In this document: in pieces, positions 4,339-37,022 of the stretch
Numbering within the stretch: position 1 is the stretch's first letter
Layout: each line of letters opens with the position of its first letter
IMG/VR virus record: IMGVR_UViG_3300032332_001158
Location: 1 to 52,528 of that record
DNA length: 52,528 bases
Reading direction: 5' to 3' (one strand)
From: a virus
Taxonomy: Duplodnaviria > Caudoviricetes
Translations under genes and position numbers: made by a program
The notes under the pieces: generated by a model
What the model was told of the DNA's origin: nothing
The model's input: the letters and a program-made list of their open reading frames with translations, nothing else
The model's database searches: none

Positions 4339-7300
4339 GATGCTATAGGGGCTTTAAATACTAAAAATGTATAACTATTTTGAGGATTTGTTTTTGGATT
4401 ACTATATACAAATCCTAAGCCATAGTTATTTTTTCTATCACATGCCCAATTAGAAGTATTCCAATCACCAACATATATTTGAGTATGGAATTTTTTATTA
4501 TCACTAGAATAGTATACTATAACATCTCCTTCTACCCAAGGTTGATTTGCACCTGAAGTATCTGGGACTCCATTACTTATGTAGTCTTTTACTTGAGTTT
4601 TTGTCAAATTATTTCCTACATTATATTGTGTGTATCCTAGTGCTATTAATTTATTCCAATAGTCACTACTATTAGCATTTCCACCAGCGCGAATATTTTG
4701 GCCTTGAGTAGCGCTTCTTCCTTTTTGTAATTCAACTAAATTTCGAGCTACATTATACGTTCCTCTACCACACATTGCAGGATCGGCATCATTTTGAGCA
4801 TCAGGAGGAGTATTAACATATGTTGCGTTCGCTGCCTGTTTGATTAAAGATTTTTGATTCTCAGTAGTTGATGAACCTGGAGGTAAAATTGTAGATGGGG
4901 ATGGTGATGGTGAAGTTGCTGGTTGTTGGGTTGTATTAGCGTTTGAGGTAAGTACTGTGATGTTTGGAGCTTCTTTAGCTACTATCCCATCCCATTTTGG
5001 TCCAGATATACTAGTAACTGTAGTTGTCCAATCATTATTTGCTATTTTATGGGACAATCCAGTTACAATAAATTGTATTCTATCTCTATAATTAATAGGC
5101 AATAGTCTATCATCAGCAGTGTATGATTCAAATAGTTTCATACCACTTAAACCATCCATTGTTAATTCTAGATCAATAGGAAGAAATCCAACTCCAGGAA
5201 TAATATCTTGATTAACAAATGTTCCTATTTCATATTTAAATAAATCAATACATGGGTTTTTCCAAGCATCAATTTGTTTTGAACCTATTATACCTTGATT
5301 TATTTCTCCATATAAACTTGTAAAAATATTTACATTAGATAAATAATCATTATCAGCTGTGCCTGTTGGTGTATTACCTGCTGCTCCTTTATCTTTATTA
5401 ATACGATCTATTAATCCTTTATTCCATTTGCTTAAAGCAGTAGCGTTTTCTCCTACTACATTACCATTAGCTTGAGCACCTACTGATACTTGGGTAGCAA
5501 AATTATTTGATAATTTAGTTTTAACAGTCGCATCTCTTACAAAACTTCCATTATCTATATCTAAAGTATGAGTTATGAATTTAGGAACAGTATTTTTAAA
5601 TAGATCAGGTTTATACTGATTCATTCCTGGGATAAATGTACGGTCTACTATTTTAAATGAATTTTTATTTTCGTCATATAATATATTAAAATTATTTATA
5701 TTACCTAAAGCATTTTGAATTCCTATTAATAATTTATCTAAAAAGTCATATAGTGAAATATTTCCTGTACTAATGTCAACATATCTTTCTAAAGTTTGAG
5801 CAATAAAATTTGTGTTAACAAGTATATTCATACTTTTACCTATATAATCATACTTAGCTATTCTAAAGTCTGAGTTTTCTATTCTTTTATATACATTAAC
5901 ATTATAATTAGGATCGTTATTTTCAGTTTTATCAGAATCTGCTGTTAATTGATCATCAACTGTGTTTCCAATCTTCCAATATGTTATAGAGTATGTGCTG
6001 ATAATAATTGTGATATTATGAATTTCACCCCCACCTTCATCACTAGCAAATGTTTTTTTAACTGAGGTTTTTGATGGTTTAGATACTAAAAATGTTTTTC
6101 CTACATCTCCAGATTGTAACTCATATTGCTTTTTAAATGTTGAGAACCCTCCAGCTTGAGCTGTTCCCCCATTAGTTATTGGAGTTAAGATGTTTATAAA
6201 ATCATCAGCATCTGTAGTTTTGCCTGAATAAACGTCTAATACTCCTTGAAGATCTGGGGCTGTGACATTTTGTTTAAAAATTTCAGGTATCTTATCATCA
6301 CCTAATATTACTTTTTCCCCTGTTGTTTTAGTCACTACATTAGATTTTATATTAGTGGCTAAAAAATTATTAGCTTCTGTTCTATTATTAGCTGTGTCTT
6401 CTTCAAAATCAGGAGCATCTCCTGTATATCCTATAAAAGATACATATAATGAAGCATAATAAGCATTTATGTCTTTTTCATCTCCACTAGAACCATCAGC
6501 ATATAATACACTTGATTTTAAAAATCTTTCACCTCTTGAAAATTCTAATCTATCATCTTGAAATTCTATAGCTTGCCAACTATAAGTAATAGGAATAGCA
6601 TAAAATCCATTTTTTTGTCTGTCAAATGTTGTTTCACTAGGATTAGCTAAGTTCTCAAATACTTTAGATGAAGGTTGAATTAAACATACTCTAGGATCTA
6701 AACTAATTTGACGTGGGATAGTAAACATAAAATTATCCTCTGGGTCAAAATCAAAATTAATTAATGCCTGGTTGTTATTGTCTTTGCTATAGTATAATAT
6801 AAAGTTTTGAATTGTTCGTAATAAACAACCTAGTTTCATATAATATTCACCTTTATATGCTTGATCATCTTCTACTCCGTTTAATTTATTAAATGGAAAT
6901 CGAGCTAAATCAATAGTTGAAGAGGTATTATTATTATTTTGGCTAGGTGTTAATCCTATACCTGCTCCTATTTTTGCAGCTTCAGTAAAACTTCCATTCT
7001 TAACAACCTCATTCATATTTGAGGTGCTAAATAATGATGTTAGGTAATATAATATTTTATTAAGAGTAGATTTATCTTTATTATATTCTATAGCTGTTTG
7101 ATCATTAGTAGCAGTAGTTGTTGCTGAGTTAGTATTATGAGTAGAATTTGATTTTATAGAATCAATGACTGATCCTACTGAAATTAAGGATAATGTAATA
7201 TTATAACTCCCATCTTTTTCTAAATTCCAAGAATAATTTTTAACTACTCCTACTAAAGCATCATAGTTACCATTTGAATTTTTTCTATCAACTTCGATTT

Positions 7301-17581: not shown

Positions 17582-19720
17582 TTATGCTGGGAAACTTGCT
17601 CCAGTTGGGGTAATATTGAAATCTAAGTAAATGAATTCAGCTGTTTTAGTTGGTTGTAAATAAATTTGACCTACTAATTCGTTTCTATCAATTACATCAG
17701 CTGTATTGTTAGTACTATCCATTACTACTTTGAAAGCATATAATCCTTGTCTTTGTTGAACGTTTTCTAAGTATGGGTTTACTTGAGCTAAGAAGTTATT
17801 TCTTGTAGCAATTGTATTTTGTTCAAATACTAATGTGTTAGCTACTTGAGAAATATAACTCTTAAGTGCAATTAACAATCTACGAACGTTAACACGATCA
17901 AGAGCAGAAGCTTGAGTTTGCAATGTTTTCTGACCATATACTACTACACCCTGTCCTGGGAATGTTGCGATCGGGTTTACTTTACCTTGATATAAACTAT
18001 CACGGTATGATTGAGGTAATTTTTGTTCTGTACGAACAACATTTCCTAATCCACCACGATTAATACCTGCTGGTGCAAACCATGGTTCAGAAACACTATC
18101 ATTGTAAGCATATACTCCTGCAATTACAGTTGAAGCTGGTACCCAAACTAAGTTACCTGTAGCTGGGTCACTTACTTGGCACCATGGCCAGTAAGCTGTA
18201 GCATAAGATGAATTTATCGCTGCCGCCTGAGCTGTTACAGTTGTAACACTTGAGCCATATGGTACTAAATCTGTTACATAAATGTTATCACCTCTATTTT
18301 GAGTATTTGTTATGATTGTAGAAATAGCGTTCGTATAATCAAAACGATATAAACCTGGTGTGAATAAAATATTGAATTGATAATCATCTTTATTATTCAA
18401 TAAGTTATACATGTTTATATAATCTGAAGCATATAATCCTTGAGTATTAGTCGCGTCTATTTTATCATAAAATTTTGCAGATGAATCTAAAAGTGAAGAA
18501 GTAAATGGATTACCAGTGGCTGTACCAAAAGCACCATTACTTGCTAATGGGATAGAGGCAGTATAAATTGTTTTAGCTACTCCATTATTATCTAAATAAT
18601 CTGGGGTTAATGAATTAACACTTTTAACTCTTACATATCTAGAAGCATTAACATAACTTCCACTATATTCCATTTGGTTAGTAGATGGATTATAATTTAG
18701 TGTAGAATCTCCTAATAATTTAGAAATAAAGTTGCTTGATTTAGGATCTAATGATAAGTTAGTCCATGTTTCTAACACAATAGGACTATTTGTAGTGTCA
18801 TTACCTTGTCTAATTAATAAATCAAATGTTCCATCTGCTGTGTTAGGATTAACTACTTGCCATCTTATATTATCTACTGATCCACTTGGTAATGCTCCAG
18901 CTGAATCAAGTGTACTCTCACTATTCATTACAATTCCTTCACCAATAGTCTCTAAAGTGAATGACGCTGTGTAATTACCTGTAGTTCCTCCTCCAAAAGC
19001 TGATCCTGACCAACTTCCTAATTTAGTAGTATTCCAGTTTGAAGCAGAAGCAAATACATATATGTTGTTATATGTTGCTACTTGAGATATAGATGAAGAT
19101 ATAGTTAAAGTTGCGGAGGAATTACTAGCTGATAGTCCATGATATATAAATGTATTATTTATCTTGATAGAGGCTGAAGCCGCTGTGTCAGCTGCATTAG
19201 AGCCACTAGGAAAGAAAAAATAAGAGACATTTGGAGTAATTTTATCAGCTGGGGCTCCTGAAGCAGTAGGTATAAAGATATACTGTACTAATGGAGATGA
19301 TCCACTATTTGAAAATACACCAAAAGCAGTTTGACTAGCTGTTACAGCAGTTATTGTTAAACTAGCTGTCGCTACTCTAGCTCCAGTTACTAACGCACTA
19401 TTTACAGATGCTGTTGCAGGAGTCCAACTTGTAGCGTCACGCACTGTTCTAGCTATTAATAATGATTTTCCACCATTTTGGAAATAATTATACGCCGCTA
19501 TTGAAGTAAAGTAAGTATAAGTATTACTAGCACTGATAATGGTTGTTCCAAATTTATTAACGAAGTCACTATAAGATGTAACTACGGTAGGTATTTCTAC
19601 AGGTCCTTTAGCTGTTGGACCTATAATAGCGGCACCTACAGATACCGGTCCTTGAGTTACAAATGAACTATCATTTTCTCTTGCTAGTACACCTGGGGAT
19701 AATAAAGTTTCTACTGCCAT
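17582..19720 (-). CDS. gp18: tail sheath protein (T4 gp18-like)
   Basis: LSPGVLAREND, PWFAPAGINRG, GQKTLQ, DRVNVRRLL motifs. Confidence 0.95.
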   Translation of the reverse strand: MAVETLLSPGVLARENDSSFVTQGPVSVGAAIIGPTAKGPVEIPTVVTSYSDFVNKFGTTIISASNTYTYFTSIAAYNYFQNGGKSLLIARTVRDATSWTPATASVNSALVTGARVATASLTITAVTASQTAFGVFSNSGSSPLVQYIFIPTASGAPADKITPNVSYFFFPSGSNAADTAASASIKINNTFIYHGLSASNSSATLTISSSISQVATYNNIYVFASASNWNTTKLGSWSGSAFGGGTTGNYTASFTLETIGEGIVMNSESTLDSAGALPSGSVDNIRWQVVNPNTADGTFDLLIRQGNDTTNSPIVLETWTNLSLDPKSSNFISKLLGDSTLNYNPSTNQMEYSGSYVNASRYVRVKSVNSLTPDYLDNNGVAKTIYTASIPLASNGAFGTATGNPFTSSLLDSSAKFYDKIDATNTQGLYASDYINMYNLLNNKDDYQFNILFTPGLYRFDYTNAISTIITNTQNRGDNIYVTDLVPYGSSVTTVTAQAAAINSSYATAYWPWCQVSDPATGNLVWVPASTVIAGVYAYNDSVSEPWFAPAGINRGGLGNVVRTEQKLPQSYRDSLYQGKVNPIATFPGQGVVVYGQKTLQTQASALDRVNVRRLLIALKSYISQVANTLVFEQNTIATRNNFLAQVNPYLENVQQRQGLYAFKVVMDSTNNTADVIDRNELVGQIYLQPTKTAEFIYLDFNITPTGASFPA

Positions 19721-20045: not shown

Positions 20046-20933
20046 TTATGTCTGATGTTTATATTTGGTAATTTGATAATTATTTTGGACTTCTTGAGGA
20101 GTAAGGCATACGTTATATATTAAAACTTGGGATAAATCTGCGTTCATCATATTAGCTGTTGAGGTCCAATTGTTTCTTCCTATTATTATTTGATTAGAAG
20201 TATAAGTAATACTATTAGTTAATATAGCTGAGTTCTCTAATTTTCCATTTATATATAAAGAAAGTACGTCTCCTGTGTTATTTCTGGTTAATGTAAAACC
20301 TACATTCCACCATGTATTAATTGTAAAAGTAGTTGTTGATAAAATAGATAATGAATTAGCATCTAAATATGATCCAGTATAAAATATAGCTGAGACAAAT
20401 TTTCCACTAGAACCAATTAGTTGCCATTGAGCCTGAGTTGTTCCTGTGTTTGGCCTTTTATTTATATACCAATTTTGCGCCTGTGTTATTGCTTTAGGTC
20501 GTACCCATAAAAATACACTTAATGGACCTGTTGTTTCTTGAATTGGGTTTAATCTAAAAGCATTATTTTGATTTGGGTTTGCAATTGCAGAAAATGTGTT
20601 TATAAAAACACTATTGTTTAAATAAGAAGATGATAGAGGAAAAGCTGAAGATGAAAAGCTAGTTATTTGTTGTGGGGTTCCACCTGCTACTACTGCTTTA
20701 ATTGGGAAGGCATGATTATTATTGCCAGATAAATCATTCCATCTTCCTGGCCATGTTAGTATAGATGAGCTATCGTTTGTTACAGAAAAGCTTCCTGAGT
20801 TAAAATCATAAGCAGTGTATGTTGATGGGGAAGCATCTAAATGTACTACTAAATTTCCTTTTCTAGCTAATTGATTAACTGTTAATCCTCCACTAACTAT
20901 TAAAGATCCACTAACTGTTAAAGTTGATATCAT
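20046..20933 (-). CDS. LamG/concanavalin A-like lectin domain virion protein
   Basis: LVVHLDA, WNDLSGNNN, WWNVGFT, LYINGKL, IYNVCLTPQEVQNNY. Confidence 0.8.
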   Translation of the reverse strand: MISTLTVSGSLIVSGGLTVNQLARKGNLVVHLDASPSTYTAYDFNSGSFSVTNDSSSILTWPGRWNDLSGNNNHAFPIKAVVAGGTPQQITSFSSSAFPLSSSYLNNSVFINTFSAIANPNQNNAFRLNPIQETTGPLSVFLWVRPKAITQAQNWYINKRPNTGTTQAQWQLIGSSGKFVSAIFYTGSYLDANSLSILSTTTFTINTWWNVGFTLTRNNTGDVLSLYINGKLENSAILTNSITYTSNQIIIGRNNWTSTANMMNADLSQVLIYNVCLTPQEVQNNYQITKYKHQT

Positions 20934-26639: not shown

Positions 26640-28325
26640 TTATAGGGTGTTCAAACCGTTAATAAAGATCTTACCATAGAATTCAGGGCGTAACATCTTC
26701 TTAGCGAAACGAGTCAACAATCCTTTACGTGGAGTGAAGGTTGATGGATCGTAGATAAGAGGAGTCATGATCAATGGAATGTATGGAGCAAATACAGCAC
26801 CAGCCTCTAAGAATTGCTTACCACGGAAACCAACTAATATAACGTTTTCAGTCATATATGGGTTCTTGTAAACAGTATAACGGCTATTGAATTGACCAGC
26901 TTTCTGTACACCAAATGCATATTCCATATCTTCAGCACCGTTAGCATTAGCAGCAAATCCTGGGATTGACTCTAAAATAGTTGATACAGTTGGAGATACT
27001 ACCATAAAGTTAGCACCACCACGTAAAGTCAACTGGTGAATCTTGTTGCTGATTTTGTTAACTTTAGTACCTAAAGTTTGGAACCAAGCACCTTGAGTGT
27101 TGTAGAATCCTAAAGACTGAGTAGGAGGAGTTGTAGCATCAGCTGTAACGTTATTAATAGCTGACCAGTACTCGATGTTATTAGATGGAACATCTTGAAT
27201 CAACATATCTAAGATTTCTAAGTCAATCTCTAAAGAGATGTACTCACTCATGATATTAGTCAATTCAGCTTCAGCATCCAAGTTTTGGTAAGCGTTCAAA
27301 TCTTGTGCAAATTCTGGTGTCCATGCAGCCTTTAACTTTTTAGTTTTAGCTGTGATGGCTTGAGATTGCATTGAGATATTAATTTCTGGGATAGTAATCA
27401 CAGAAGTAGATTGAGCGTTAGGAACTGAGTAAGAGTTAGCACCCGTAGTATCTTCGAAATCACCGCGTTTGTTATCAGCAGTAGCTTTATTATAATAAAT
27501 TGTAACTGTTGATGCTTCAACTAAACCACCTGCAATAGAACCAGTAGCAAAGAATGTGATAGTTCCAGAAGCTAATTCAGCTTGTGTAAATTGTGGGTAG
27601 AAAGATGATGAGATATCATATCCACTTGAACCTGAGGCAATGATAAATCCACGGATTGCATCTGGATCGTAGTTTGGAATAGATGAAGTACCAATTGTAA
27701 TTGCTTTAATCTCACCACGAGCTACAGATGCTGATAATGCTGTATCATATCCTACGTTAAGCCAAGAGGCTGTGCTGATCTTACCAGCTGCAATTGTTTG
27801 GTTGTTACCGGCTAATGCAGAAGGAACAGATGAAGTTTGGTTTGTAGAATATGTAAAGCGGCCTGCACCATATAAACCACCAGCTGGAGCTGGAGTTGCG
27901 AATGGGTACTGAGCACTTGTACGGTTACCATATAAAGAGTTAGTAGCTGTAAATGGGTTCTTAGTAGTACCATATTGGAAATCTAAGAAGAATACAAGAC
28001 CAGAAGGTAAGTTCATTGGTTGAACGCTAACGAATTCTTTCGCTGCGATTTGGCCAAATACCTTACGTACTAATGGTAATGCGATACCAGCCCATTGTTC
28101 ACCTTGTCCTACAGTGAATGATGCTCCAGTACCAGTTGAAGAAGCTTCAACTACTAATTGCTTTGCTTGGTTTTCCAACATCAAAGCCATGTTGTTTTTG
28201 TTTACGTCTTCGCCTAAACCTTCTAAAAGACCGGTTTTGCTCCATTTGTTTGCTAATTTAGCAGCGTCACCTTGCAATGACTTCCATGGATTTGCAGACT
28301 CGACTAATGATTGAATTGTGTTCAT
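26640..28325 (-). CDS. gp23: major capsid protein (T4 gp23-like)
   Basis: VSVQPMNLPSGLVF, AKTKKLKAAWTPEFAQDLNAY, EAELTNIMSEYISLEID, APYIPL. Confidence 0.95.
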   Translation of the reverse strand: MNTIQSLVESANPWKSLQGDAAKLANKWSKTGLLEGLGEDVNKNNMALMLENQAKQLVVEASSTGTGASFTVGQGEQWAGIALPLVRKVFGQIAAKEFVSVQPMNLPSGLVFFLDFQYGTTKNPFTATNSLYGNRTSAQYPFATPAPAGGLYGAGRFTYSTNQTSSVPSALAGNNQTIAAGKISTASWLNVGYDTALSASVARGEIKAITIGTSSIPNYDPDAIRGFIIASGSSGYDISSSFYPQFTQAELASGTITFFATGSIAGGLVEASTVTIYYNKATADNKRGDFEDTTGANSYSVPNAQSTSVITIPEINISMQSQAITAKTKKLKAAWTPEFAQDLNAYQNLDAEAELTNIMSEYISLEIDLEILDMLIQDVPSNNIEYWSAINNVTADATTPPTQSLGFYNTQGAWFQTLGTKVNKISNKIHQLTLRGGANFMVVSPTVSTILESIPGFAANANGAEDMEYAFGVQKAGQFNSRYTVYKNPYMTENVILVGFRGKQFLEAGAVFAPYIPLIMTPLIYDPSTFTPRKGLLTRFAKKMLRPEFYGKIFINGLNTL

Positions 28326-28362: not shown

Positions 28363-29328
28363 TTATTTACGTAAACCTGCTAATCTTTGCATACGAGCAA
28401 AAGCATCATTTACTTCAATAATTTGTTCTTGTTTTGGGGCAGCAGTTGCAATTGTTTTAGAAGCTGATCCTAATGATTCTTTAATTGGTGATTTCTTAGT
28501 TGTTGTTTTTAAAGATTCAGTCAATGTTTCGAATACTAGTTTTACTTCTTTAACGGTTTCTGCTTTGTCAAATGTGTTTAAAACCTTTACTTTTTCTGAT
28601 TCGGTAAGATTCTTAGCTTTGAAGATTTTGTTAGTGTAAAGAAGCTTAGCGTTTAAAAGATTTACTTCGTTAAGTTCAACTTTTAATTCAGCAATAGCTT
28701 TATAAGCTTCTTTTAACTCTTTTTCTTTGTCATCTTTTTTCTTGTTGTCCTTTTTCTTTTTAGCTTCTTCTAGTGTTTCATCACTATATTCTGCTAAAAT
28801 TTCAGCTAAAAGTTCATCAATTTCTTCAACTTCTTCTTCCTCTTCTTCTTCTCCTTCTTCACCCATGTCATCCATGTCGTCCATATCCATGTCCATATCC
28901 ATGTCCATATCCATGTCCATATCCATGTCCATATCCATGTCATCCATGTCTTCTTCATTTTCTTCACCTGCCATTAACTTACCAGATGCGATCATGTCGT
29001 CAATTACCTGTGTTACAAGTTCTTCGATGTCTTCGTCTGACATTTCTTCTAACATTAGATCTTCATCCATTGTTTCTGATTTGTCACCTTCTGCCATTAT
29101 TTCCTCTTCTTCGGTAACTCCTAACTCAGCTAAAATTTCTTCTAAGCTGAATGTTTCGTCCATTGTATCTGCTTCATCCATCTCATCCATTTCGTTTAGC
29201 TTTTCAGCAAACATAGCGGTAAGTTGTGGAGTAAAAGCTTCTTCAAGGGCGGCTTTTGCACTCGCGATGGCTGTTTCTTTAATGGTTTTAGCCTCAGCGA
29301 TTGCTTCTTTAAGCATTTCTCTGTTCAT
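28363..29328 (-). CDS. prohead core scaffold protein (gp22 analogue); start revised to MNREMLKEA
   Basis: acidic coiled coil with many [LI]xE sites directly before the capsid gene; LNEVNLLNAKLLY and RMQRLAGL; the upstream extension crosses a terminator. Confidence 0.8.
   Translation of the reverse strand: MNREMLKEAIAEAKTIKETAIASAKAALEEAFTPQLTAMFAEKLNEMDEMDEADTMDETFSLEEILAELGVTEEEEIMAEGDKSETMDEDLMLEEMSDEDIEELVTQVIDDMIASGKLMAGEENEEDMDDMDMDMDMDMDMDMDMDMDMDDMDDMGEEGEEEEEEEVEEIDELLAEILAEYSDETLEEAKKKKDNKKKDDKEKELKEAYKAIAELKVELNEVNLLNAKLLYTNKIFKAKNLTESEKVKVLNTFDKAETVKEVKLVFETLTESLKTTTKKSPIKESLGSASKTIATAAPKQEQIIEVNDAFARMQRLAGLRK
28862..28950. repeat. coding microsatellite, (TCCATATCCATG) x5 core, encoding poly-(MD)
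   Basis: direct reading of the sequence. Confidence 0.9.
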
Positions 29329-29468
29329 TTTGTCCTCAATTAAATTTGTTTTGGAAATACGTTTATTAGAAACGTAATAGATTTTTTTGTTTGTAAATGC
29401 TACATATAGATCAGGGGTAGCATATTTGAGCATACATATATATAGAGATATGTAAGGTCGCGTTTTGT

Positions 29469-29523
29469 AAAAAAGAAATGCCCCGCTTTTGCGAGGCATC
29501 GATCCTAAAATGCTATTTTAGGA
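29469..29523 (-). terminator. tandem hairpins with an intrinsic terminator before the scaffold gene
   Basis: TCCTAAAAT-3 nt-ATTTTAGGA, then ATGCCTCGC-AAAA-GCGGGGCAT followed by TTCTTTTTT. Confidence 0.8.
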
Positions 29524-29531
29524 GGGGTTAA

Positions 29532-29831
29532 TTATTTAAAAGCAAGTTTAAGAATATAATCTATGATTTCATCAGACTCATTAACTATGTTTAATTCTAC
29601 ATCTGTTAACGGAGTACCATCTTTCCATTTAGCATATACTACACGTGCACCTGTAGTATCAGGGTCTTCTGCATCTATATCTATGCTTCCTATTCCTTCT
29701 ACATCAACTGTAGAATAGTCTATGCCTACTTTTTTTAATTTTGCCATAATAGGCTTAAACATAGCTTTATATCCAGAGTGTTTTTTTACAACAATCTCTT
29801 TAATTAATTGTTTTAGCTGGGTTTTATTCAT
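29532..29831 (-). CDS. hypothetical protein with the shared leader (MNKTQLKQLIKE)
   Basis: 99-aa ORF between the protease and scaffold genes. Confidence 0.65.
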   Translation of the reverse strand: MNKTQLKQLIKEIVVKKHSGYKAMFKPIMAKLKKVGIDYSTVDVEGIGSIDIDAEDPDTTGARVVYAKWKDGTPLTDVELNIVNESDEIIDYILKLAFK

Positions 29832-29834
29832 ATT

Positions 29835-30446
29835 TTAGAATATAGGACAAGTTCCATTAGCACAAAGTATATCTGTAATGATAGAGTTTACACCTTGATA
29901 CTTATTAATTTGAGTTGGTAATTTAGATTCATTCATCATACCTACTTCTTTCATATATGAGCCTGGGTTAGAAGGTGTTGAAACAAAGTCCCAACATAGT
30001 AATTCAAAATCGTCTTGTACTTCCATAATTTCACCCATTTGTTTTAATGAGCCCATACCACGAGATGAAACACCTACTGGTATGTTATTTTGAAATAATG
30101 CTGCTAATATATTTCCAGATGGTGTAGGTAAAATTTCTATTGCTCCCATTACGTGATCTCCATCCCACCACATTTTTTTAATATTGTGAGATACATTTTT
30201 TAAGTTAATAATAGAAGAATCAGGATGATCTAACTCACCTAAAGCACGATTTGCTTTAACATTCTCCATATATTTTTCAATCTCACGCTCCCATAAGTCT
30301 TTTGAGTAGTAACGGCCATTACCGTTTTTTACTTCAGCAGTTGCTAAAATACCCTCAACTAGTGGATTACCAGTTGATGATTTTCCTTCAATTAATTTAA
30401 CAGGTTTAGCTGTAAATGTTTGGGTTTCTATTAATACTTGTTTCAT
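29835..30446 (-). CDS. gp21: prohead core protease (T4 gp21-like)
   Basis: NGNGRYY, ALGELDHP (His), GVSSRGMGS (Ser), WDFVSTPS (Asp). Confidence 0.95.
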   Translation of the reverse strand: MKQVLIETQTFTAKPVKLIEGKSSTGNPLVEGILATAEVKNGNGRYYSKDLWEREIEKYMENVKANRALGELDHPDSSIINLKNVSHNIKKMWWDGDHVMGAIEILPTPSGNILAALFQNNIPVGVSSRGMGSLKQMGEIMEVQDDFELLCWDFVSTPSNPGSYMKEVGMMNESKLPTQINKYQGVNSIITDILCANGTCPIF

Positions 30447-31108
30447 TATTTTAAATCAAATTTGACTACCCGTCTTACTGTGTCTTCTAGTATTTCGTAA
30501 CTTTCAATTATTTTTTCTAATTCTTCTATATATTCTTCTAATTGATTTTCATTACCACCTAGTTTATAATATATGTCGTCTAACTCAGTTACAGCATCCA
30601 TGTCTTTGGGGCTTAAGTATCTTTTTTCAAGTTCTATTTGTTCATACTCTTCCATAATACCCCTAATTTCATCTCTAAATTCTTCTAGTAATGATAAATC
30701 TTTTTTAACAGAACTAACAAATTCAGTTAACGCTAAAACTATATTTTGATATCCTTCATATTTTTCAAATATATCAATCAATTGTTTTCTCCAAGTAATT
30801 GGTTTAGAATCTAGTTTATTCATAAATTCTTCTAAACCTTGAATCATATCTGTTACTTTATTATAGATTCGAATTTGGCGTTCTTCCTCTAATTTAGAAT
30901 GATATGTTAGATTCCCTGTTTTTAAACGTTGCAGTGCATCTAATTGTTTAGATGTAGCCATTCCTCCTCTTTTCTTAACAGAATTAATTACAGATTGAAA
31001 AAATTGTTTATTAGAATTAGATAACCCATTACTCCGATCAAGTATCTGTTGATAATGATCAGTACTAACCTTTTGGTCTTCAAGTAATAAGTCAACTAAT
31101 TTAATCAT
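30446..31108 (-). CDS. hypothetical head-region protein with leader MIKLVDLLLE
   Basis: 220 aa, coupled overlaps on both sides, coiled-coil C half. Confidence 0.65.
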   Translation of the reverse strand: MIKLVDLLLEDQKVSTDHYQQILDRSNGLSNSNKQFFQSVINSVKKRGGMATSKQLDALQRLKTGNLTYHSKLEEERQIRIYNKVTDMIQGLEEFMNKLDSKPITWRKQLIDIFEKYEGYQNIVLALTEFVSSVKKDLSLLEEFRDEIRGIMEEYEQIELEKRYLSPKDMDAVTELDDIYYKLGGNENQLEEYIEELEKIIESYEILEDTVRRVVKFDLK

Positions 31109-32163
31109 TTTTTACCTTTAGCCAAGTTTTTCCACATTGCAGCTGCTGCTACTTTTTTACCTGCTTCTTCTGATCCGTATTCTTTTTCAGCAGCTTTAGC
31201 TACTTTTTCAAATCCTTTTCCTTTTTTACCAATATCTTTACCAGCGTGTGCTTTTTTAGACACCGCTGATTTTTCTTTTTTAGTTAATCCAGCTGATGGT
31301 TTTTTCTTTTCGTGGATTGGATTTGATTCAGCTTTGCTTAAAATATATTTTACAGCATCACTAGCTCCACCTTCAGATTTTTTATGATCAAAGTACTTTT
31401 TAGTAATTTCAGTTGAATGTTTTTCGAAATATTTTTTAGCCTCGTCGTTATTTTTTAATTTGGCTGTAACTCGAGTTTCAAATTCTTCTTCATCAGCATA
31501 TGCTTTTGGATCTCTTTGAACTTCTTTTAAAGCTTCTTTAATTAATAAATGAATTTGAGAACGCAATACTGATTCTTTTAAGTCACCATATCCTGATGAT
31601 TTAAATTTACCTTTAGGTTCTTTTGGTTCACCTAATCCAGGTGCTTCAGTTGTGTATCCTAATCCCTTAACTCCAAATTGACCATTTTTAACATAGTAAC
31701 TAATGTCTTTAGCTAAGTTTTTAGCTACAATATCTCTTAATTCTTCAACATCTTTATCAGCGTTTTTAGGATCTTTCATTTCAGTGTAATATCCTTTTAA
31801 GAACTCTTGACCAAACACGTTATCATAATTCTTTTTATCCTTATAATCATATCCACGAGTAGCCATATCTGTAACTTCTTTAGTGGTTTCTTTTTCTTCA
31901 GCTTTAGCTTCTTTTTCTTCTTTAAGAGCAGTCATGTTTTCATTAAAGATAGCATGCCAATCTTGTTTTTTACCTGTGGTTACTAGACCACCAATTCCTT
32001 CACTAATAACTCCTCTATTCTTAAGAATACGAGTTGTATCTTCAAATGTGTTAGTTTGTGATAACATATCTGGGAATAAGCGATAAGCTGATTTTAAGAA
32101 GTATGCTTTATCTCCTTTACCTTCTTTAATAAGGTTATATTGTGTTTGTAGTGTTTTTTCCAT
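31105..32163 (-). CDS. putative internal head protein (modular, basic C-terminus)
   Basis: 352 aa, multiple [LI]xE sites, Lys-rich C-terminal module. Confidence 0.6.
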   Translation of the reverse strand: MEKTLQTQYNLIKEGKGDKAYFLKSAYRLFPDMLSQTNTFEDTTRILKNRGVISEGIGGLVTTGKKQDWHAIFNENMTALKEEKEAKAEEKETTKEVTDMATRGYDYKDKKNYDNVFGQEFLKGYYTEMKDPKNADKDVEELRDIVAKNLAKDISYYVKNGQFGVKGLGYTTEAPGLGEPKEPKGKFKSSGYGDLKESVLRSQIHLLIKEALKEVQRDPKAYADEEEFETRVTAKLKNNDEAKKYFEKHSTEITKKYFDHKKSEGGASDAVKYILSKAESNPIHEKKKPSAGLTKKEKSAVSKKAHAGKDIGKKGKGFEKVAKAAEKEYGSEEAGKKVAAAAMWKNLAKGKK

Positions 32164-32165
32164 GG

Positions 32166-32651
32166 TTATTTTTTAAATAATTCTATTACATCATCTAATA
32201 AAGATGCTGCTAAATCGGTACCATAAATTGCTTTAAACTGAGGGTTTTCTCGGTATGTATTTATAGTTTCTTTTTTAGCGTCGCTTATTAGTTGAATAAG
32301 TTCTTTTAGTTTATCTGATAAGTTATTGTAATCGCCTAGTCGTCCTGCTATGTATTTTTTAATTTCTTCATTATCTGTAGGTAATGTAGAAATGTATGCT
32401 TCTATATCAAACGATGGTTGTCCTTCTTCTTCCCATAACTGTTTTACATCAACACCTTTAGCTTTTTTGTTTAAAGCTTTTTTATTAACAGGTTTAAATC
32501 CTAATTTATAATAGTAAATTGGAGCTTTACCTGCTACAGGAGTAGGGTAATTTTCTCCTTCACCAGCAACAAATGATGCCCCGGTTCCGGTAGCACTCAT
32601 TTCTTTAATTTTTTTTCTAATAGATCCTTTTATTTTATCTATTTTATTCAT
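32166..32651 (-). CDS. head-region protein carrying a capsid N-arm-like peptide
   Basis: IKE-MSATGTGASFVAGEGE resembles the capsid protein VVE-ASSTGTGASFTVGQGE. Confidence 0.6.
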   Translation of the reverse strand: MNKIDKIKGSIRKKIKEMSATGTGASFVAGEGENYPTPVAGKAPIYYYKLGFKPVNKKALNKKAKGVDVKQLWEEEGQPSFDIEAYISTLPTDNEEIKKYIAGRLGDYNNLSDKLKELIQLISDAKKETINTYRENPQFKAIYGTDLAASLLDDVIELFKK

Positions 32652-33505
32652 TTTGCTAATGTTTCTAATTCTTCAACTAATTGATAGTATTGTAACAAAT
32701 TTACTAAATTATCGTCATTTGGTTTATCATTTTTACCTAATACAGGTAAAATACTAATCACTTCATTGATTTTAATTTGAATTGCTTTATCAGTAACTGT
32801 TTTATTAAGATTAGCTAAATGATTTTTAATTTCATTTACTTTAGTATTGTAAAATTCTTTTAATTTAGGATTACTATCAACACTATTAATAAATTCTTTT
32901 AATACTACCTTTTGATTATGATTTAAATCAGCATATTTGCTATTAAATTTTTCTAACAACATTTTATATGCTAATGCTTGAACATCTTTATCTTGTTGTT
33001 TAAATTCCTCTAATACATTACTTTCAACCTCTTGCTTATCAATTGTAGATTTAGTTAAAAACTCTAATAAAACAGTTTTATTTTCTATAATTTGGCCAGG
33101 GCTTAAATCATTTTCTCCATTATATATTTCTAATAAAGAATATAATGCGGCTTGTGCTTTGTAATTAGGTAGTTTTGTTTTAAAGAAATCTTCAATATTA
33201 TAATGTTTTCTGATTTCGTTAACTAAATTATACTTTTGTCTTCTTAATGCTGAGCGGTTTAAATGTTTAGCACTTTCAACTATGGTGCTGATCACCATAT
33301 CTGCTTTGGCTTCACTAACATTTACATTCTTAAAGAAATTTTCGTATAACTTGTATTCTCTTCCTAATTCAGTTTTTGTAAAATATTTCTTTAGTATACC
33401 TGATGCCTTTGATTCTGCTCCAGACAGCGTATCTGCTGTAATCTGTCTCACAAGTAATTCAAAGAGGATGCCAGTATTTTTGTACTTTGAATGTTTAATA
33501 GTCAT
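32648..33505 (-). CDS. head assembly-region hypothetical protein
   Basis: 285-aa helical ORF directly after the portal, own ATATTTATA motif. Confidence 0.65.
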   Translation of the reverse strand: MTIKHSKYKNTGILFELLVRQITADTLSGAESKASGILKKYFTKTELGREYKLYENFFKNVNVSEAKADMVISTIVESAKHLNRSALRRQKYNLVNEIRKHYNIEDFFKTKLPNYKAQAALYSLLEIYNGENDLSPGQIIENKTVLLEFLTKSTIDKQEVESNVLEEFKQQDKDVQALAYKMLLEKFNSKYADLNHNQKVVLKEFINSVDSNPKLKEFYNTKVNEIKNHLANLNKTVTDKAIQIKINEVISILPVLGKNDKPNDDNLVNLLQYYQLVEELETLAK

Positions 33506-33544: not shown

Positions 33545-35425
33545 TTATTCTCGTATTTGGGATTCATCTAATAGTGAGGACTCTTCTCTTTTTAATGAAA
33601 TTTTCTTTTCTAAACCTTCAAGTAAAGTTTTATTTTGAAGAGTTTCTAAAGCTAATGGTGAACCACCTTTAAAATTATTTCTTAAAGTTTTATCTTCGCC
33701 AGTATCATCACCTTTTTTCATACCCACTGCCCCCAATCTATCTTTACCAAATGGGTTTTCTTGTGTTCCAATATTGGTTGTTTTTTCTTTAGGACGACCT
33801 AATTTAAGATCTTCATCATATCCTGTAGGTAAGCCTCCATTTCTGCTAACTCCATACAATGTTGCTAAGTCATGAGGTGTACCATATGATTTACCTGACT
33901 CTAATGGGTCATTACCTTCGTTTTCAATTTGCTTTAATCTAAATGCGCGTTTTTGGTCTTCTGCAATTAAATCTCGGTATTCATCATATTGGTCTTCACT
34001 TAAATGGAATACATTATCATAAATCCAGTCTGTAGGTAATAATTTAGTTTCCATTAAGTTACGAGCTAGATCTACCTTTTCTTTCATTAACGCAATTCTT
34101 TCTTGATCATAAATGATAGAAGGAGTAGTTAATAATAATTCAAAATTAGTTAATTGTTCGTTTCTATATCCTTGAGTATACAAATGAACCAATGCAATTT
34201 TATTTAATTCAGATAATATAATTCTTTGAATACGATCAATTGTACGAGCAAAACGAATATCTTCTGCTGCTAATGTTGCTTTACCAGTTAAGTCTTTTTC
34301 ATAACCCATGAATGCTTTAGGTACTTTTAAAGCAGCAAATAATTTATCTCTTAAGTAAACTACATCATCTATTGCTGTATAGTCCATGCCTTTAGTAGGT
34401 TCAATCTTAGTAGCACTATCATTACCTCTTACAGGAATATAAAAATCTTCTAGTAAGTTTTGTTGGTTATACTTCATGTTATATTCACCACTTTGGGGAT
34501 CAATAAATGGAGTTTTCTTCATTGTATTGATAGTCTTTTGCATGAAGTTTTCTACTTCATTTGGTGGAATAGAACCAACATTAATATAGAAAATACGTTT
34601 TTCTGGGGCACGAACAATACGATGGATTAACATAGCATCTTCCATCAAAATATATTGTTTGAATAATTTACGAGCAGGTTCTAGATATGATCTACCATAT
34701 GGGAGATAGTTAACATCAGTAATTAATCTGAAGTGAGCCATCTCATAATTGTCAAAATAAATCTTATTATCTTGTTTGGTAGCAGAATAAGTACCTTGAC
34801 CTGTCACTCCATAATATCCTGTTCCACCTGCGTATCCATCTGGTGAAAAAGCATATCTAACAGCTGCTGGTGATTTTGGATCGTATCCTTCTTCACGAGC
34901 AATATGGTAAGCAGTGTATGGTATAACATTATATACACCAAACTTTTCAGCTATTTCTAATTTTAAGAAAAAGTCACCATACTTACACATTTGACGAATC
35001 CATGACCATAAATTAAACTCAATGTTTAATACATCATAAAATAAATTATATAAGATCTTTTGTGTATCTTCGTCACTACTTCTGATTTGAAGTACCTCTC
35101 CCATATCGTTCTTGAGAGTACATTCGTCTGCGATTATATCCAAAGCAGATGCGATGATAGCGTCTGTATCCATGGCATCATAATCAGAATAGATTTGAGT
35201 ACGTAAGTATCTCCAGTTAAGATTTAATTGAGCACCATAAAGTGAGGTACTATTACTTGAATATATGCGATTATATCTGTCTACAAGAGCGTTTGTTTGA
35301 AATTCTCCAGTTGATTGGATGCTATTAACATCCATTACTTTTAATTCATTTCCTCCAGCATTACGAATAATTACATCTGTTGAAAATAATCGTTGTAGCC
35401 TTGAAAATATACTAGTATCTGCCAT
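33545..35425 (-). CDS. gp20: portal protein (T4 gp20-like)
   Basis: MEDAMLIHRIVRAPEKRIFYINVG, LEDFYIPVRG, ALKVP. Confidence 0.95.
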   Translation of the reverse strand: MADTSIFSRLQRLFSTDVIIRNAGGNELKVMDVNSIQSTGEFQTNALVDRYNRIYSSNSTSLYGAQLNLNWRYLRTQIYSDYDAMDTDAIIASALDIIADECTLKNDMGEVLQIRSSDEDTQKILYNLFYDVLNIEFNLWSWIRQMCKYGDFFLKLEIAEKFGVYNVIPYTAYHIAREEGYDPKSPAAVRYAFSPDGYAGGTGYYGVTGQGTYSATKQDNKIYFDNYEMAHFRLITDVNYLPYGRSYLEPARKLFKQYILMEDAMLIHRIVRAPEKRIFYINVGSIPPNEVENFMQKTINTMKKTPFIDPQSGEYNMKYNQQNLLEDFYIPVRGNDSATKIEPTKGMDYTAIDDVVYLRDKLFAALKVPKAFMGYEKDLTGKATLAAEDIRFARTIDRIQRIILSELNKIALVHLYTQGYRNEQLTNFELLLTTPSIIYDQERIALMKEKVDLARNLMETKLLPTDWIYDNVFHLSEDQYDEYRDLIAEDQKRAFRLKQIENEGNDPLESGKSYGTPHDLATLYGVSRNGGLPTGYDEDLKLGRPKEKTTNIGTQENPFGKDRLGAVGMKKGDDTGEDKTLRNNFKGGSPLALETLQNKTLLEGLEKKISLKREESSLLDESQIRE

Positions 35426-35450: not shown

Positions 35451-37022
35451 TTACAATAACCAACTAATGTCCTCTTGTCCGTAGCCATAATTCATTTGAT
35501 ATGGGTTATTATACTGGTTTGGAGAATATGCTCCATTAAAATTTGGTTTTGGTGCTGAGATGTTATTTAACATGGCACGGGTTAAATCCATTCCTTGAGA
35601 TTTGAATTTTAAGGCTGTGTCTCTTACATACATTGCTGTTCCAAAACTCATTACTAAATCATCGTTGTATCCTTGTTGTGCTTCTGCTTTACCATTTTTC
35701 CAAACGAATACTTTCATTTCTTCTACTAAACGTTTAGATTGTATAATAACACTCTTATCCCCAATATACTCACGAAATTTATTAATGACAAGGGGTCTTG
35801 TTCTTAAATTCATAGTAAAACCAGGTACTAATTTAGATGGGTCATCTAATTTTTCTAAATAAGATTCAGCATTTACTGTTTCAGTTTTAGGAGAATAATA
35901 TAAATTTCTATATCCTCTTTCTTGAATAGCATCTAATGTTGCCCATCCAATATTATTATTTTCAACAACTAACAGTGCTTCATTATATTCAGTAGCAATA
36001 GCTACTAGTAAGTAACCAAATTCTTTTGGTGATAATTGTCCTTTATATTCACCTACTTGAGTATTTGTTTCAACGTCTATAATATGAAATGCAGAAAAGT
36101 CTTTACTATCACCTCGGGCAACATCTGCTACAACCATATAACTACGACTATAGTCAGCTGGTTCCCATATCCATAAGTTATGGTCAATGCCTCTTCTTTC
36201 TAGTGGTTCTTTAACATAGGTTTGAGTGATAAAATCTAGGTATTCAGTATAAAATACAACATCACCTGATGTATTAAAGTCACAGTCACACTCTTGTGCT
36301 GCTAATCTAGGATCGCCTAATAAATCATCTTGTCTTTTTCTCCAAACTTCATCTCGTTCAGGATGAACATACCATGGTAATTTAATAGGTAAAAAGTCAT
36401 TTTCACCAGCTTCTGCTTTAACCCATGTTTGGTGAAACCAGTTACCAGTACCAAATGGAGTAGATAATACAATTGCTCCTCCTCCAGTTGCTAATGTTTG
36501 TTGAGCAGAAGCCCATATCTCACTAATTCCATCAATAAACGCAGCCTCATCTATAATAAGAAGTGAAACTGCTTCTGATCGACCTGCGTCACCTGCTGCT
36601 GAGACTGCTTTAACTTGTGAGCCATTACTTAATCGTAATGTCAGTTTATTGTTTTCTTCAGCTGGTATTTTTAGCCATGATGGTAAATTTTCAAACATGA
36701 ATTTAACTTTCGTTACCATGTTTTTAGCTGTTTCTTGTTTAGTAGCTATACATAAGACGTTTTTATCTTTTTGAAACAACATTAACCATAATGAATAACC
36801 TGCTACTAAAGTTGATATACCTAATTGTCTTGATTTAAGTATTATATCATATGGATTATCTCTCCATAAATGTAATACTTTTTCTTGGAATGGGTATAAA
36901 TTGAATATAATTCTACCACGTTGCGGGTGCTGGATGTGGCAGTATTTTTTCATAAAGTGCGCTGGGTCTTGAGCGCACTTAAGATATTCCTCTCGGATTA
37001 TTTGTTTTATATCTTGAGACAT
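35451..37022 (-). CDS. terL: terminase large subunit (T4 gp17-like)
   Basis: KSRQLGIST Walker A, LIIDEAAF Walker B, LSTP coupling motif, ADVARG/NDDLVM nuclease motifs. Confidence 0.95.
   Translation of the reverse strand: MSQDIKQIIREEYLKCAQDPAHFMKKYCHIQHPQRGRIIFNLYPFQEKVLHLWRDNPYDIILKSRQLGISTLVAGYSLWLMLFQKDKNVLCIATKQETAKNMVTKVKFMFENLPSWLKIPAEENNKLTLRLSNGSQVKAVSAAGDAGRSEAVSLLIIDEAAFIDGISEIWASAQQTLATGGGAIVLSTPFGTGNWFHQTWVKAEAGENDFLPIKLPWYVHPERDEVWRKRQDDLLGDPRLAAQECDCDFNTSGDVVFYTEYLDFITQTYVKEPLERRGIDHNLWIWEPADYSRSYMVVADVARGDSKDFSAFHIIDVETNTQVGEYKGQLSPKEFGYLLVAIATEYNEALLVVENNNIGWATLDAIQERGYRNLYYSPKTETVNAESYLEKLDDPSKLVPGFTMNLRTRPLVINKFREYIGDKSVIIQSKRLVEEMKVFVWKNGKAEAQQGYNDDLVMSFGTAMYVRDTALKFKSQGMDLTRAMLNNISAPKPNFNGAYSPNQYNNPYQMNYGYGQEDISWLL

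What the first reader, a model, noticed from the sequence alone, without database searches (positions are those of the whole stretch)
32548..32610. A separate gene carries a mimic of the mature capsid protein N-arm
Seen: the 161-aa protein reads IKE|MSATGTGASFVAGEGEN and the capsid protein (about 28096-28152) reads VVE|ASSTGTGASFTVGQGEQ. They share E-x-S-x-TGTGASF-x-x-G-x-GE in the same register after a predicted protease site, while synonymous codons differ (ACCGGAACCGGG versus ACTGGTACTGGA). Known: the HK97-fold N-arm inserts into neighbouring subunits after maturation. Inference: this protein supplies an N-arm in trans where no capsid neighbour exists, for example around the portal vertex, whose gene is two upstream.
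Basis: partly seen in the sequence, partly recalled or inferred. Interest (0 to 1): 0.7.

Follow-up and report, generated by a model that had tools for sequence, protein, structure and literature searches.

The report
Head protein copies capsid protein's N-terminus
A small, unnamed head-assembly protein of an uncultured T4-like phage carries, right after a predicted protease cut, a copy of the first 18 residues of the mature capsid protein, and the two peptides change together across related phages, which points to a shared binding site that is not yet identified.

Summary
p161 (32166-32651, minus strand) and the gp23-like capsid protein share 11 of 18 residues directly after a hydrophobic-x-Glu site. 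The heptapeptide TGTGASF occurs only at these two places in the six frames.

The shared segment is the counterpart of the T4 "N-fist" (gp23* residues 66-91), not the N-arm proper.

Across 56 distinct related loci the two peptides co-vary:
- Permutation z = 11.4.
- In 27 phylogenetically independent pairs, 17 favour the cognate arrangement and 5 oppose it.
- The signal persists beyond P8'.
- Shared codons are at chance level (273 observed, 251 expected), so selection acts on the protein and recent gene conversion is excluded.

p161 sits in the T4 gp67/68 slot between portal and protease. It has a 17-residue propeptide like a capsid-targeting sequence, and belongs to a large family with no Pfam or PHROG match.

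My best reading is a processed prohead protein whose new N-terminus is read by the same site as the capsid N-fist. Docking in trans into the lattice is plausible (about 0.35) but unshown, and placement at the portal vertex is untested. A docking handle used at the prohead stage is a serious rival.

The parts
32166..32651 (-). p161 gene (161 aa), a member of a large unannotated phage family. Its ATG overlaps the stop codon of the upstream 285-aa gene.
   Evidence: ORF. 967 homologs, none of the best 120 named. 131 representatives at 50% identity. No Pfam or PHROG family for any of 40 members.
32601..32651 (-). Residues 1-17: predicted amphipathic helix ending I15-K16-E17. Putative propeptide resembling a capsid-targeting sequence, with the prohead-protease site.
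   Evidence: AF2 helix 3-18. E17 conserved in at least 90% of 40 family members. P3 is L/I/M/V and P1 is E in 56 of 56 related loci. T4 targeting propeptides of 10-20 residues are described in PMC5694885 (passages).
32547..32600 (-). Residues 18-35, MSATGTGASFVAGEGENY: the copy of the capsid N-fist, beginning at the predicted new N-terminus.
   Evidence: Co-variation with the cognate capsid peptide. Predicted disordered on its own (pLDDT below 50).
32427..32546 (-). Residues 36-75: conserved x-T-P-x-A-F-like stretch, lysine-rich linker, conserved YYYKLGFKPV and KG-x-x-VKQLW. Together with the N-fist copy this forms the 'N-module'.
   Evidence: Family alignment. The N-module is a separate gene in many related loci.
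32169..32426 (-). Residues 76-161: helical C-terminal domain ('C-module').
   Evidence: AF2 helices 83-88, 95-135 and 145-159 with pLDDT 84-90. No fold match at E <= 0.001 in PDB or BFVD. Encoded as a separate gene starting MYKYKL... in 17 related loci.
26640..28325 (-). Major capsid protein, gp23-like (561 aa).
   Evidence: PF07068, E = 3e-71. The family profile matches solved T4 gp23*, E = 3e-35.
28146..28325 (-). Capsid propeptide, residues 1-60, ending V58-V59-E60.
   Evidence: Three predicted helices, 2-10, 13-31 and 40-58. E60 invariant in 68 sequences. Positional counterpart of the T4 65-residue propeptide cut at L-T-E65|A66.
28092..28145 (-). Capsid residues 61-78, ASSTGTGASFTVGQGEQW: counterpart of the T4 N-fist. 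Hypervariable apart from F70, G75 and W78.
   Evidence: W78 aligns with T4 I91, the last N-fist residue. Conservation. Variability.
29835..30446 (-). Prohead protease, gp21-like. The presumed enzyme for both cuts.
   Evidence: PF03420 Peptidase_S77, E = 2e-30; phrog_207, E = 1e-56.
33545..35425 (-). Portal protein, gp20-like.
   Evidence: PF07230, E = 4e-67.
28363..29499 (-). Acidic scaffolding protein. The true start is probably at MNREMLKE. Its C-terminal candidate cut site, IKE|SLGSASK, does not follow the N-fist type.

Best explanation
p161 is a component of the assembling head (prohead), in the class of the T4 internal and core proteins. A 17-residue N-terminal helix ending I-K-E would target it to the prohead and be removed by the gp21-like protease. 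The same enzyme removes the 60-residue propeptide of the capsid protein at V-V-E.

Both cuts expose almost the same 18-residue peptide: x-S-x-T-G-T-G-A-S-F-x-x-G-x-G-E-x-aromatic. In the capsid protein this peptide is the counterpart of the T4 N-fist, which after cleavage and expansion packs against four neighbouring subunits.

I propose that the p161 copy is read, after cleavage, by the same site that reads the capsid N-fist. It would either occupy an N-fist site that has no capsid donor or pair with an orphan N-fist. This would tether the lysine-rich linker and helical C-domain of p161 to the shell.

What is shown:
- the copy exists and begins exactly at the putative cut;
- it co-varies with the capsid peptide lineage by lineage, at the protein level;
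- the gene lies in the head module.

What is inferred, with my odds:
- the mimic is under selection: 0.85;
- cleavage at E17: 0.7;
- post-cleavage docking to the lattice: about 0.35;
- location at the portal vertex: about 0.12.
For: 1. The copy is unique and significant. In 45 of 56 related loci p161 is the best non-capsid match of the cognate capsid N-fist among all six-frame ORFs, usually by about twofold in score. There is no third copy.

2. Co-variation over 56 distinct pairs. The summed cognate score is 2491 against a permuted mean of 1539 (sd 83, z = 11.4), and 0 of 10000 permutations reach it. The cognate capsid peptide ranks in the top 5 for 29 of 56 pairs. Clade-specific forms are shared by both genes, for example IASNSxFTSGGxGEN, TISSNSxFVS, TGxGTAGAAFxxGVG, TGGGAGSxxF and FSxNVGTGxQ.

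3. In 27 phylogenetically independent pairs on a tree of the capsid body, cognate beats swapped in 17, loses in 5 and ties in 5 (sign test p = 0.008, Wilcoxon p = 0.0009).

4. The signal holds in the distal part, P9' to the end: z = 9.8, with 13 against 4 independent pairs. By inference this is further than an active-site cleft would read.

5. The similarity does not come from shared DNA. Of 554 identical residues, 273 share a codon against 251 expected (z = 1.9). Exact nucleotide runs exceed the codon-shuffled null at p <= 0.05 in 5 of 56 loci and at p <= 0.01 in none.

6. The likeness is confined to the part kept after cleavage. It begins at the cut in every clade, whether the propeptide has 10-26 residues (27 loci) or 97-195 residues (28 loci). 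The capsid P-side is invariant while the p161 P-side varies.

7. Head-module context: portal, 285 aa, p161, 352 aa, 220 aa, S77 protease, 99 aa, scaffold, capsid protein. This is syntenic with T4 genes 20-67-68-21-22-23.

8. T4 precedent from the passages read. The N-fist contacts two subunits of its own capsomer and two of the next one (PMC9958956). The N-fists of the five subunits facing the portal are disordered for lack of a neighbour (PMC7136217). After cleavage, gp24* residues 11-20 reach onto the neighbouring hexamer (PMC9546572).

9. The scaffold's conserved candidate site, [IV][KN]E|[SN][LM]G[SR]ASK, does not follow the N-fist type.
Against: 1. In 11 of 56 pairs (the 'short-form' clade plus immuto, L052 and L057) p161 keeps only about 10 residues, such as MSTSGGAGAY, while the capsid N-fist has 18-26. 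The cognate ranks there are 8-51 of 56. A 10-residue peptide can hardly replace a whole N-fist.

2. In the closest relatives the p161 peptide stays TGTGASF while the capsid peptide changes, for example to VNGGSATF in L001 and L003 (ranks 36 and 35 of 56).

3. In T4 the N-fist ends up on the outer surface, whereas a protein delivered by a targeting propeptide is inside. A route outward for p161 is speculative.

4. There is no structural support. Both segments are predicted disordered in isolation (pLDDT below 50).

5. Neither cleavage nor presence in virions has been observed for any family member. No cultured phage carries a strong copy: tblastn of p161 finds nothing in GenBank phages. The immuto and Mel-JY01 homologs resemble their capsid N-fists only weakly.

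6. Length co-variation is weak. Spearman is 0.36 without phylogenetic correction, and contrasts go 4 the same way against 2 opposite, out of 22.
Confidence: 0.35

Rival explanations
1. Prohead-stage handle. Before or at cleavage, the segment after the Glu in both proteins docks on the same element inside the prohead: the scaffolding core, the inner shell or a protease exosite. p161 would then be incorporated and released in step with the capsid protein. The mature peptide would have no lattice role.
For: In T4 the N-terminal region of gp23 lies inside the unexpanded head and probably contacts the scaffolding core. Head-length mutations map there, including A66D at the first residue after the cut (PMC9546572, passages). 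p161 occupies the slot of the T4 core proteins gp67 and gp68. The element most constant in both proteins is next to the cut: S at P2' in 53 of 56 p161 peptides and 43 of 56 capsid peptides, and G at P5' in 43 and 36 of 56. This part survives in the short-form clade.
Against: The mimicry excludes the capsid propeptide, which is the usual scaffold-binding part, and starts exactly at the cut in all clades. Co-variation reaches P9'-P25'. No scaffold segment was seen to follow the N-fist type; its C-terminal region is conserved across types.
Confidence: 0.3
2. Extended substrate recognition. The gp21-like protease of this lineage reads the prime side of its two key substrates, and the peptides co-vary because they follow the protease.
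For: Both peptides start at the scissile bond, so the register is kept automatically. The residues nearest the cut are the most conserved. Proximal P1'-P8' co-variation gives z = 8.9.
Against: Co-variation is at least as strong distally (z = 9.8). Other likely sites carry no such prime side: the scaffold IKE|SLGSASK, and in related loci the tags MYKYKLxLKE|RDE... and MANYKYKLKE|VEIGD.... In this window the 99-aa, 352-aa and 220-aa proteins have [LI]xE near the N-terminus without the motif. That these sites are cut is inferred.
Confidence: 0.12
3. Relic of a partial duplication of the 5' part of the capsid gene, kept alike by occasional gene conversion, with no function of its own.
For: There is a slight excess of shared codons (z = 1.9). 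Two loci have long exact runs: L076 with 20 nt (p = 0.02) and L102 with 16 nt (p = 0.03).
Against: Codon sharing is near chance overall, and no locus reaches p <= 0.01. Anchor positions are conserved in both proteins: Glu, S at P2', F, two G and the final aromatic, which is always W in the capsid protein and Y or H in p161. The copy persists across roughly 50% family divergence. Independent contrasts favour cognate pairs.
Confidence: 0.08

Closest known systems
T4 internal proteins IPI, IPII, IPIII and Alt, which carry a capsid-targeting sequence
   Same: A short N-terminal propeptide of 10-20 residues ending hydrophobic-x-Glu. It targets the protein to the prohead core and is removed by the gp21 protease (PMC5694885 and PMC9958956, passages). 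p161 has a 17-residue helical N-terminus ending I-K-E and lies in the head module.
   Different: No sequence relationship was found. The T4 proteins are not reported to copy the capsid protein's new N-terminus. Half of the p161 relatives have propeptides of 97-195 residues, more like the long propeptides of SPN3US and phiKZ.
T4 prohead core proteins gp67 and gp68
   Same: Same gene position between portal and protease. They are small proteins of the scaffolding core that gp21 processes. Gene 68 mutations alter head shape; only the title of Keller 1988 was seen, in a reference list.
   Different: No detectable homology. By eye and by local alignment, T4 gp67 and gp68 contain no copy of the T4 N-fist. 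T4 gp67 and gp68 are degraded to small peptides, whereas p161 has a folded C-domain.
T4 vertex protein gp24* N-terminus
   Same: It is the product of a different gene. After gp21 cleavage its N-terminus (residues 11-20) reaches onto neighbouring gp23* hexamers and contributes inter-capsomer contacts (PMC9546572). This is the nearest precedent for an arm supplied in trans.
   Different: gp24 is a full HK97-fold paralog that sits in the lattice. p161 is a 161-residue helical protein with no capsid fold. No second Gp23-family gene was found in four complete or nearly complete genomes of this lineage.
T4 gp23* N-fist (residues 66-91)
   Same: The capsid segment being copied is its positional counterpart. 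It lies directly after the maturation cut and ends where the N-arm helix begins.
   Different: It has 18-26 residues, is rich in Gly, Ser and Thr, and has no sequence similarity to the T4 N-fist. Its structure and contacts in this lineage are unknown.

Membership tests
T4-type prohead internal/core proteins with a capsid-targeting propeptide (functional class) | Gene inside the head-morphogenesis module, next to the portal, protease and scaffold genes | tested here: met
   Order is portal, 285 aa, p161, 352 aa, 220 aa, S77 protease, 99 aa, scaffold, gp23-like capsid protein. The same order is seen in immuto and Mel-JY01 and it parallels T4 20-67-68-21-22-23.
T4-type prohead internal/core proteins with a capsid-targeting propeptide (functional class) | N-terminal propeptide ending in a hydrophobic-x-Glu protease site | tested here: met
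   The window has I15-K16-E17. P3 is L/I/M/V and P1 is E in 56 of 56 related loci. E17 is at least 90% conserved. Helix 3-18. The (L/I)-x-E consensus itself is recalled; the T4 gp23 site L-T-E65|A66 was read from the sequence.
T4-type prohead internal/core proteins with a capsid-targeting propeptide (functional class) | Actually cleaved by the prohead protease and present in proheads or virions | not testable with these tools
   No proteomic data exist for any family member. The papers found that mention phage immuto concern DNA modification and polymerases (listing only).
T4-type prohead internal/core proteins with a capsid-targeting propeptide (functional class) | Sequence homology to T4 gp67, gp68 or the internal proteins | tested here: not met
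   No Pfam or PHROG hit for p161 or for any of 40 family members. No similarity to solved structures at E < 0.38.
   Exception: the short-form clade, 11 of 56 pairs.
   This needs a multi-capsomer model or cryo-EM. See Tried and rejected for the one modelling attempt.
   The only link is gene proximity, two genes from the portal.
gp23-like major capsid protein (PF07068) with maturation cleavage | Pfam Gp23 match and alignment to solved T4 gp23* | tested here: met
   PF07068, E = 3e-71. Family profile against 8t9r, 5vf3 and 6uzc, E about 1e-34 to 3e-35.

The most novel reading that the evidence does not exclude
p161* is an adaptor for the symmetry mismatch at the portal vertex. Its helical C-domain would sit on the portal or inner shell. 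Its flexible lysine-rich linker would let the N-fist copy plug the N-fist sites, or pair with the orphan N-fists, of the five hexamers that border the portal and have no capsid neighbour there. The fine co-variation would arise because N-fists are read by contacts that change with the N-fist itself.
Probability: 0.12. Interest if true: 0.8.

Novelty: new variant of a known kind. Interest (0 to 1): 0.6.

Why it matters
Head maturation in T4-like phages is a classic system, and the N-terminal arm of the capsid protein is thought to act only on its own lattice. A separate protein would be a new way of coupling an accessory protein to a capsid if three things hold: the same cut exposes the same peptide, that peptide follows the capsid's hypervariable N-fist through many lineages, and it does so without sharing DNA.

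Such a protein would also give a natural handle for finding what reads the N-fist. The family is large (967 homologs at E <= 0.001) and wholly unannotated, so even assigning it to 'processed head protein' improves the annotation of many aquatic phage genomes. The two full-text searches I made turned up no description of such a mimic.

Tried and rejected
- Complex prediction of the capsid protein without propeptide and N-fist (residues 79-561, 68-row alignment) with p161 residues 18-80 (40-row alignment). The tool's verdict was 'no answer': ipSAE 0.01 and 0.00 against a mark of 0.32, and the controls were not run. This counts neither for nor against binding. A single subunit cannot offer the multi-subunit site that the T4 N-fist uses.
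- Fold searches with the p161 model found nothing at E <= 0.001 in PDB or BFVD. The Atlas lists only unnamed viral clusters.
- tblastn of p161 against GenBank phages found no match.
I used a capsid-protein alignment instead.
- Gene conversion as the cause was rejected on codon and exact-run tests. A DGR-type repeat was dismissed for the same reason, that the DNA is not alike; this is inference.
- A third copy of the motif in other genes was not found.
- A mimic in T4 itself was not found. The best local match of the T4 N-fist in 27 kb around gene 23 lies in gp21 (score 40 against 36 for the next hit, which is in a non-coding frame). I regard this as chance.
- Capsid monomer model: mean pLDDT 63.7, with the N-fist region below 50. 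It is uninformative about docking.
Supplementary files were not consulted.

Full report
WHAT IS THERE

The window is a 52.5 kb virus record estimated at 33% complete. All long ORFs lie on the minus strand. The region of interest is a T4-type head module:

| Coordinates | Product | Evidence |
|---|---|---|
| 35451-37022 | large terminase | Terminase_6N |
| 33545-35425 | portal | PF07230, E = 4e-67 |
| 32648-33505 | 285-aa protein | none |
| 32166-32651 | p161 | none |
| 31105-32163 | 352-aa lysine-rich protein | none |
| 30446-31108 | 220-aa coiled-coil protein | weak coiled-coil matches, all below the Pfam cut-offs |
| 29835-30446 | prohead protease | Peptidase_S77, E = 2e-30 |
| 29532-29831 | 99-aa protein | none |
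| 28363-29499 | acidic scaffold | none |
| 26640-28325 | capsid protein | PF07068 Gp23, E = 3e-71 |

This order parallels T4 genes 20-67-68-21-22-23. The nearest cultured phages by capsid protein are Flavobacterium phage immuto (54%), Microcystis phage Mel-JY01 (47%) and Rhodothermus phage RM378 (35%).

THE OBSERVATION

p161 reads ...IRKKIKE|MSATGTGASFVAGEGENY. The capsid protein reads ...AKQLVVE|ASSTGTGASFTVGQGEQW.

- The motif occurs only at these two places in six frames.
- BLASTP gives E = 1e-5.
- The two family profiles match only over p161 8-37 and capsid 51-80, at probability 87% and E = 4e-6.

WHAT THE COPIED SEGMENT IS

A profile of 68 capsid proteins aligns to solved T4 gp23* with E about 3e-35. 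Window W78 lands on T4 I91. T4 gp23 is cut at L-T-E65|A66, and residues 66-91 form the 'N-fist'.

According to the passages I read, the N-fist:
- is disordered and internal in the unexpanded head;
- moves to the outer surface on expansion;
- contacts two subunits of its own capsomer and two of the next one;
- is disordered in the five subunits that face the portal.

Window residues 61-78 are therefore the counterpart of the N-fist, which precedes the N-arm helix (predicted helix 78-96). Within 68 capsid proteins E60 and W78 are invariant, and F70 and G75 are conserved in at least 90%. The rest of the segment varies greatly in sequence and length, although the protein body is 61-81% identical to the window's.

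THE p161 FAMILY

There are 967 homologs at E <= 0.001, and none of the best 120 listed is named. There are 131 representatives at 50% identity. None of 40 diverse members has a Pfam or PHROG family.

The family plan, is:
1. a variable N-terminus;
2. a hydrophobic-x-Glu site (E17 conserved in at least 90%);
3. x-S-x-[TS]-G ... F ... G-x-G-x-x-[YH];
4. x-T-P-x-A-F;
5. a lysine-rich linker;
6. YYYKLG[FY]KPV;
7. KG-x-EVKQLW;
8. a helical domain of about 85 residues.

AF2 gives helix 3-18, a disordered stretch 17-48, and a confident helical C-domain with pLDDT 84-90. The C-domain has no fold match.

The stretch before the Glu has 10-26 residues in 27 related loci and 97-195 residues in 28. The site is thus internal in half of the family, as it is in the capsid protein. 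In 17 related loci the N-module and C-module are separate genes joined by TAATATG, and the C-module begins MYKYKL..KE. The tag M..[YF]K[YF]K[LI]KE also heads long forms, and in one clade it directly precedes the N-fist copy.

In this window the 99-aa, 352-aa and 220-aa neighbours also start with short stretches ending LIKE, LIKE and LLLE. All of this resembles the T4 capsid-targeting propeptides of 10-20 residues and the long propeptides of giant phages (PMC5694885, passages). Cleavage itself is inferred.

CO-VARIATION

I collected 100 IMG/VR loci. Together with three GenBank loci and the window this made 104 sources. A family HMM found a p161 homolog in 79 of them. It also hit the capsid N-terminus itself in seven loci, with E from 3e-5 to 5e-4.

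61 loci gave both peptides. Before the count I dropped L016 and L087 (cut by contig ends), L020 and L043 (copy mostly lost), and L084 and L086 (tail not alignable). That left 56 distinct pairs.

Clade-specific forms are shared by the two genes. In each pair below the p161 peptide comes first:
- L053: ESTISSNSGFVSGGEGENH and QNTISSNSSFVSNGNGENW
- L074: MSMTGGGTAGAAFSPGVGMNY and SSQTGAGTAGAAFTAGVGEQW
- L091: MSTTGGGAGSATFSAGTGMQY and SSNTGGGAGSGTFTAGTGAQW
- L019: ISATGGSANFSSATGTGAQY and ASQTGGTANFTANVGTGAQW

The statistics are as follows.
- Summed cognate score 2491 against a permuted mean of 1539 (sd 83, z = 11.4). None of 10000 permutations reaches it.
- The cognate peptide ranks first (ties allowed) in 10 of 56 pairs and in the top five in 29 of 56. 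The median rank is 4.75.
- Relatedness inflates such permutations, so I also took 27 pairs joined by non-overlapping paths on a tree of the capsid body. Cognate beats swapped in 17, loses in 5 and ties in 5 (sign test p = 0.008, Wilcoxon p = 0.0009).
- The signal holds for P1'-P8' (z = 8.9) and for P9' to the end in the 44 long forms (z = 9.8; 13 against 4 independent pairs, sign test p = 0.02).

p161 is the best non-capsid match of the capsid N-fist in 45 of 56 loci, and no third copy exists.

NOT SHARED DNA

Of 554 aligned identical residues with degenerate codons, 273 use the same codon against 251 expected from local codon usage (z = 1.9). The longest exact nucleotide run exceeds a codon-resampled null at p <= 0.05 in 5 of 56 loci and at p <= 0.01 in none. 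Recent gene conversion is excluded. Ancient conversion at clade bases followed by purifying selection is not excluded, but that too would imply that likeness is selected.

RESULTS AGAINST A SIMPLE MIMIC

- In 11 of 56 pairs p161 has only about 10 residues (MSTSGGAGAY, VSMSGAAGAY, ISTSAAAGAY and MSTTGAVGGY in immuto) while the capsid N-fist has 18-26. Their cognate ranks are 3 to 51.5.
- In the nearest relatives the p161 peptide stays constant while the capsid peptide varies (L001 and L003, ranks 36 and 35).
- Length co-variation is weak.
- Cultured relatives show only faint likeness.
- T4 shows none.

MECHANISM

The likeness starts exactly at the cut in every clade and excludes the propeptide side. 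The capsid P-side is invariant while the p161 P-side varies. The likeness also spans the whole N-fist. This favours a role for the free, post-cleavage N-terminus, which is what the capsid N-fist is.

The scaffold's conserved candidate site does not follow the N-fist type, and other likely sites lack the motif. This argues against general prime-side specificity of the protease.

I therefore rank first a trans-acting N-fist copy read by the lattice site, or by an orphan N-fist (about 0.35). Four complete or nearly complete genomes of the lineage hold a single Gp23-family gene. The capsid protein probably also forms the pentons, which would leave the portal vertex as the obvious place with missing donors. 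That step is inference, and I put the portal-vertex version at about 0.12.

The main rival (0.3) is a handle used inside the prohead. In T4 the same region probably touches the scaffolding core, and A66D alters head length. p161 sits in the core-protein slot, and only the cut-proximal part survives in the short-form clade.

The one modelling attempt gave no answer and is not counted either way.

NOVELTY

The class is known: a processed head protein with a targeting propeptide. A co-evolving copy of the capsid protein's neo-N-terminus on a separate small protein is not described in what I could search. The searches returned only the T4 structural papers and review. Subscription journals and supplementary files were not seen.

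Noticed in passing
L017-L019, L051, L059, L063, L068, L073, L078, L081, L085, L089-L091, L098, L101, L105: In 17 related loci the p161 family is split into two genes, an N-module with the N-fist copy and a helical C-module. They are mostly joined by an overlapping or adjacent stop and start (TAATATG). The window has the fused form.
   Followed up: partly
related loci, e.g. L050:6536, L053:5642, L018:6116, L075:3095: A short N-terminal tag, M..[YF]K[YF]K[LI]KE, heads 27 ORFs in 24 loci, and by eye all are p161-family modules. It ends in a hydrophobic-x-Glu site and may be a lineage-specific capsid-targeting sequence. The internal YYYKLGFKPV of p161 resembles it.
   Followed up: partly
window 28879-28941 (minus-strand scaffold gene): A perfect 12-nt tandem repeat, 5.2 copies, encodes (MD)n inside the acidic scaffold protein. 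The listed ORF start (378 aa) is probably too early: MNREMLKE at residue 58 matches the start of the immuto homolog.
   Followed up: partly
window 29532-29831, 30446-31108, 31105-32163: The 99-aa, 220-aa and 352-aa proteins of the head module begin MNKTQLKQLIKE, MIKLVDLLLE and MEKTLQTQYNLIKE, which look like targeting propeptides ending in a protease site. The 352-aa protein has a very lysine-rich C-terminus and may be a DNA-binding internal protein.
   Followed up: no
window 32648-33505: The 285-aa protein directly after the portal has a strongly conserved N-terminus (M.IKHSKYKNTG..[FY]ELL..QI.AD) in immuto and Mel-JY01 as well. It has no Pfam or PHROG match. Its stop codon overlaps the p161 start.
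   Followed up: no
immuto, Mel-JY01 and two IMG/VR genomes (G001, G002): There is only one Gp23-family gene per genome, so this lineage appears to lack a gp24-like vertex paralog.
   Followed up: partly
L112 (T4) 5431-6087: The best local match of the T4 N-fist within 27 kb around gene 23 lies in the protease gp21 (IEGDHGPGDKLAANIRAG against EIGGDHGYNATNIAAG). The score is 40 against 36 for the next hit, so it is probably chance.
   Followed up: no
window 17582-19720 and 20046-20933: A tail sheath protein (Phage_sheath_1 and Phage_sheath_1C) and a 295-aa protein with a Laminin_G_3 / concanavalin-like domain lie downstream of the head module.
   Followed up: no
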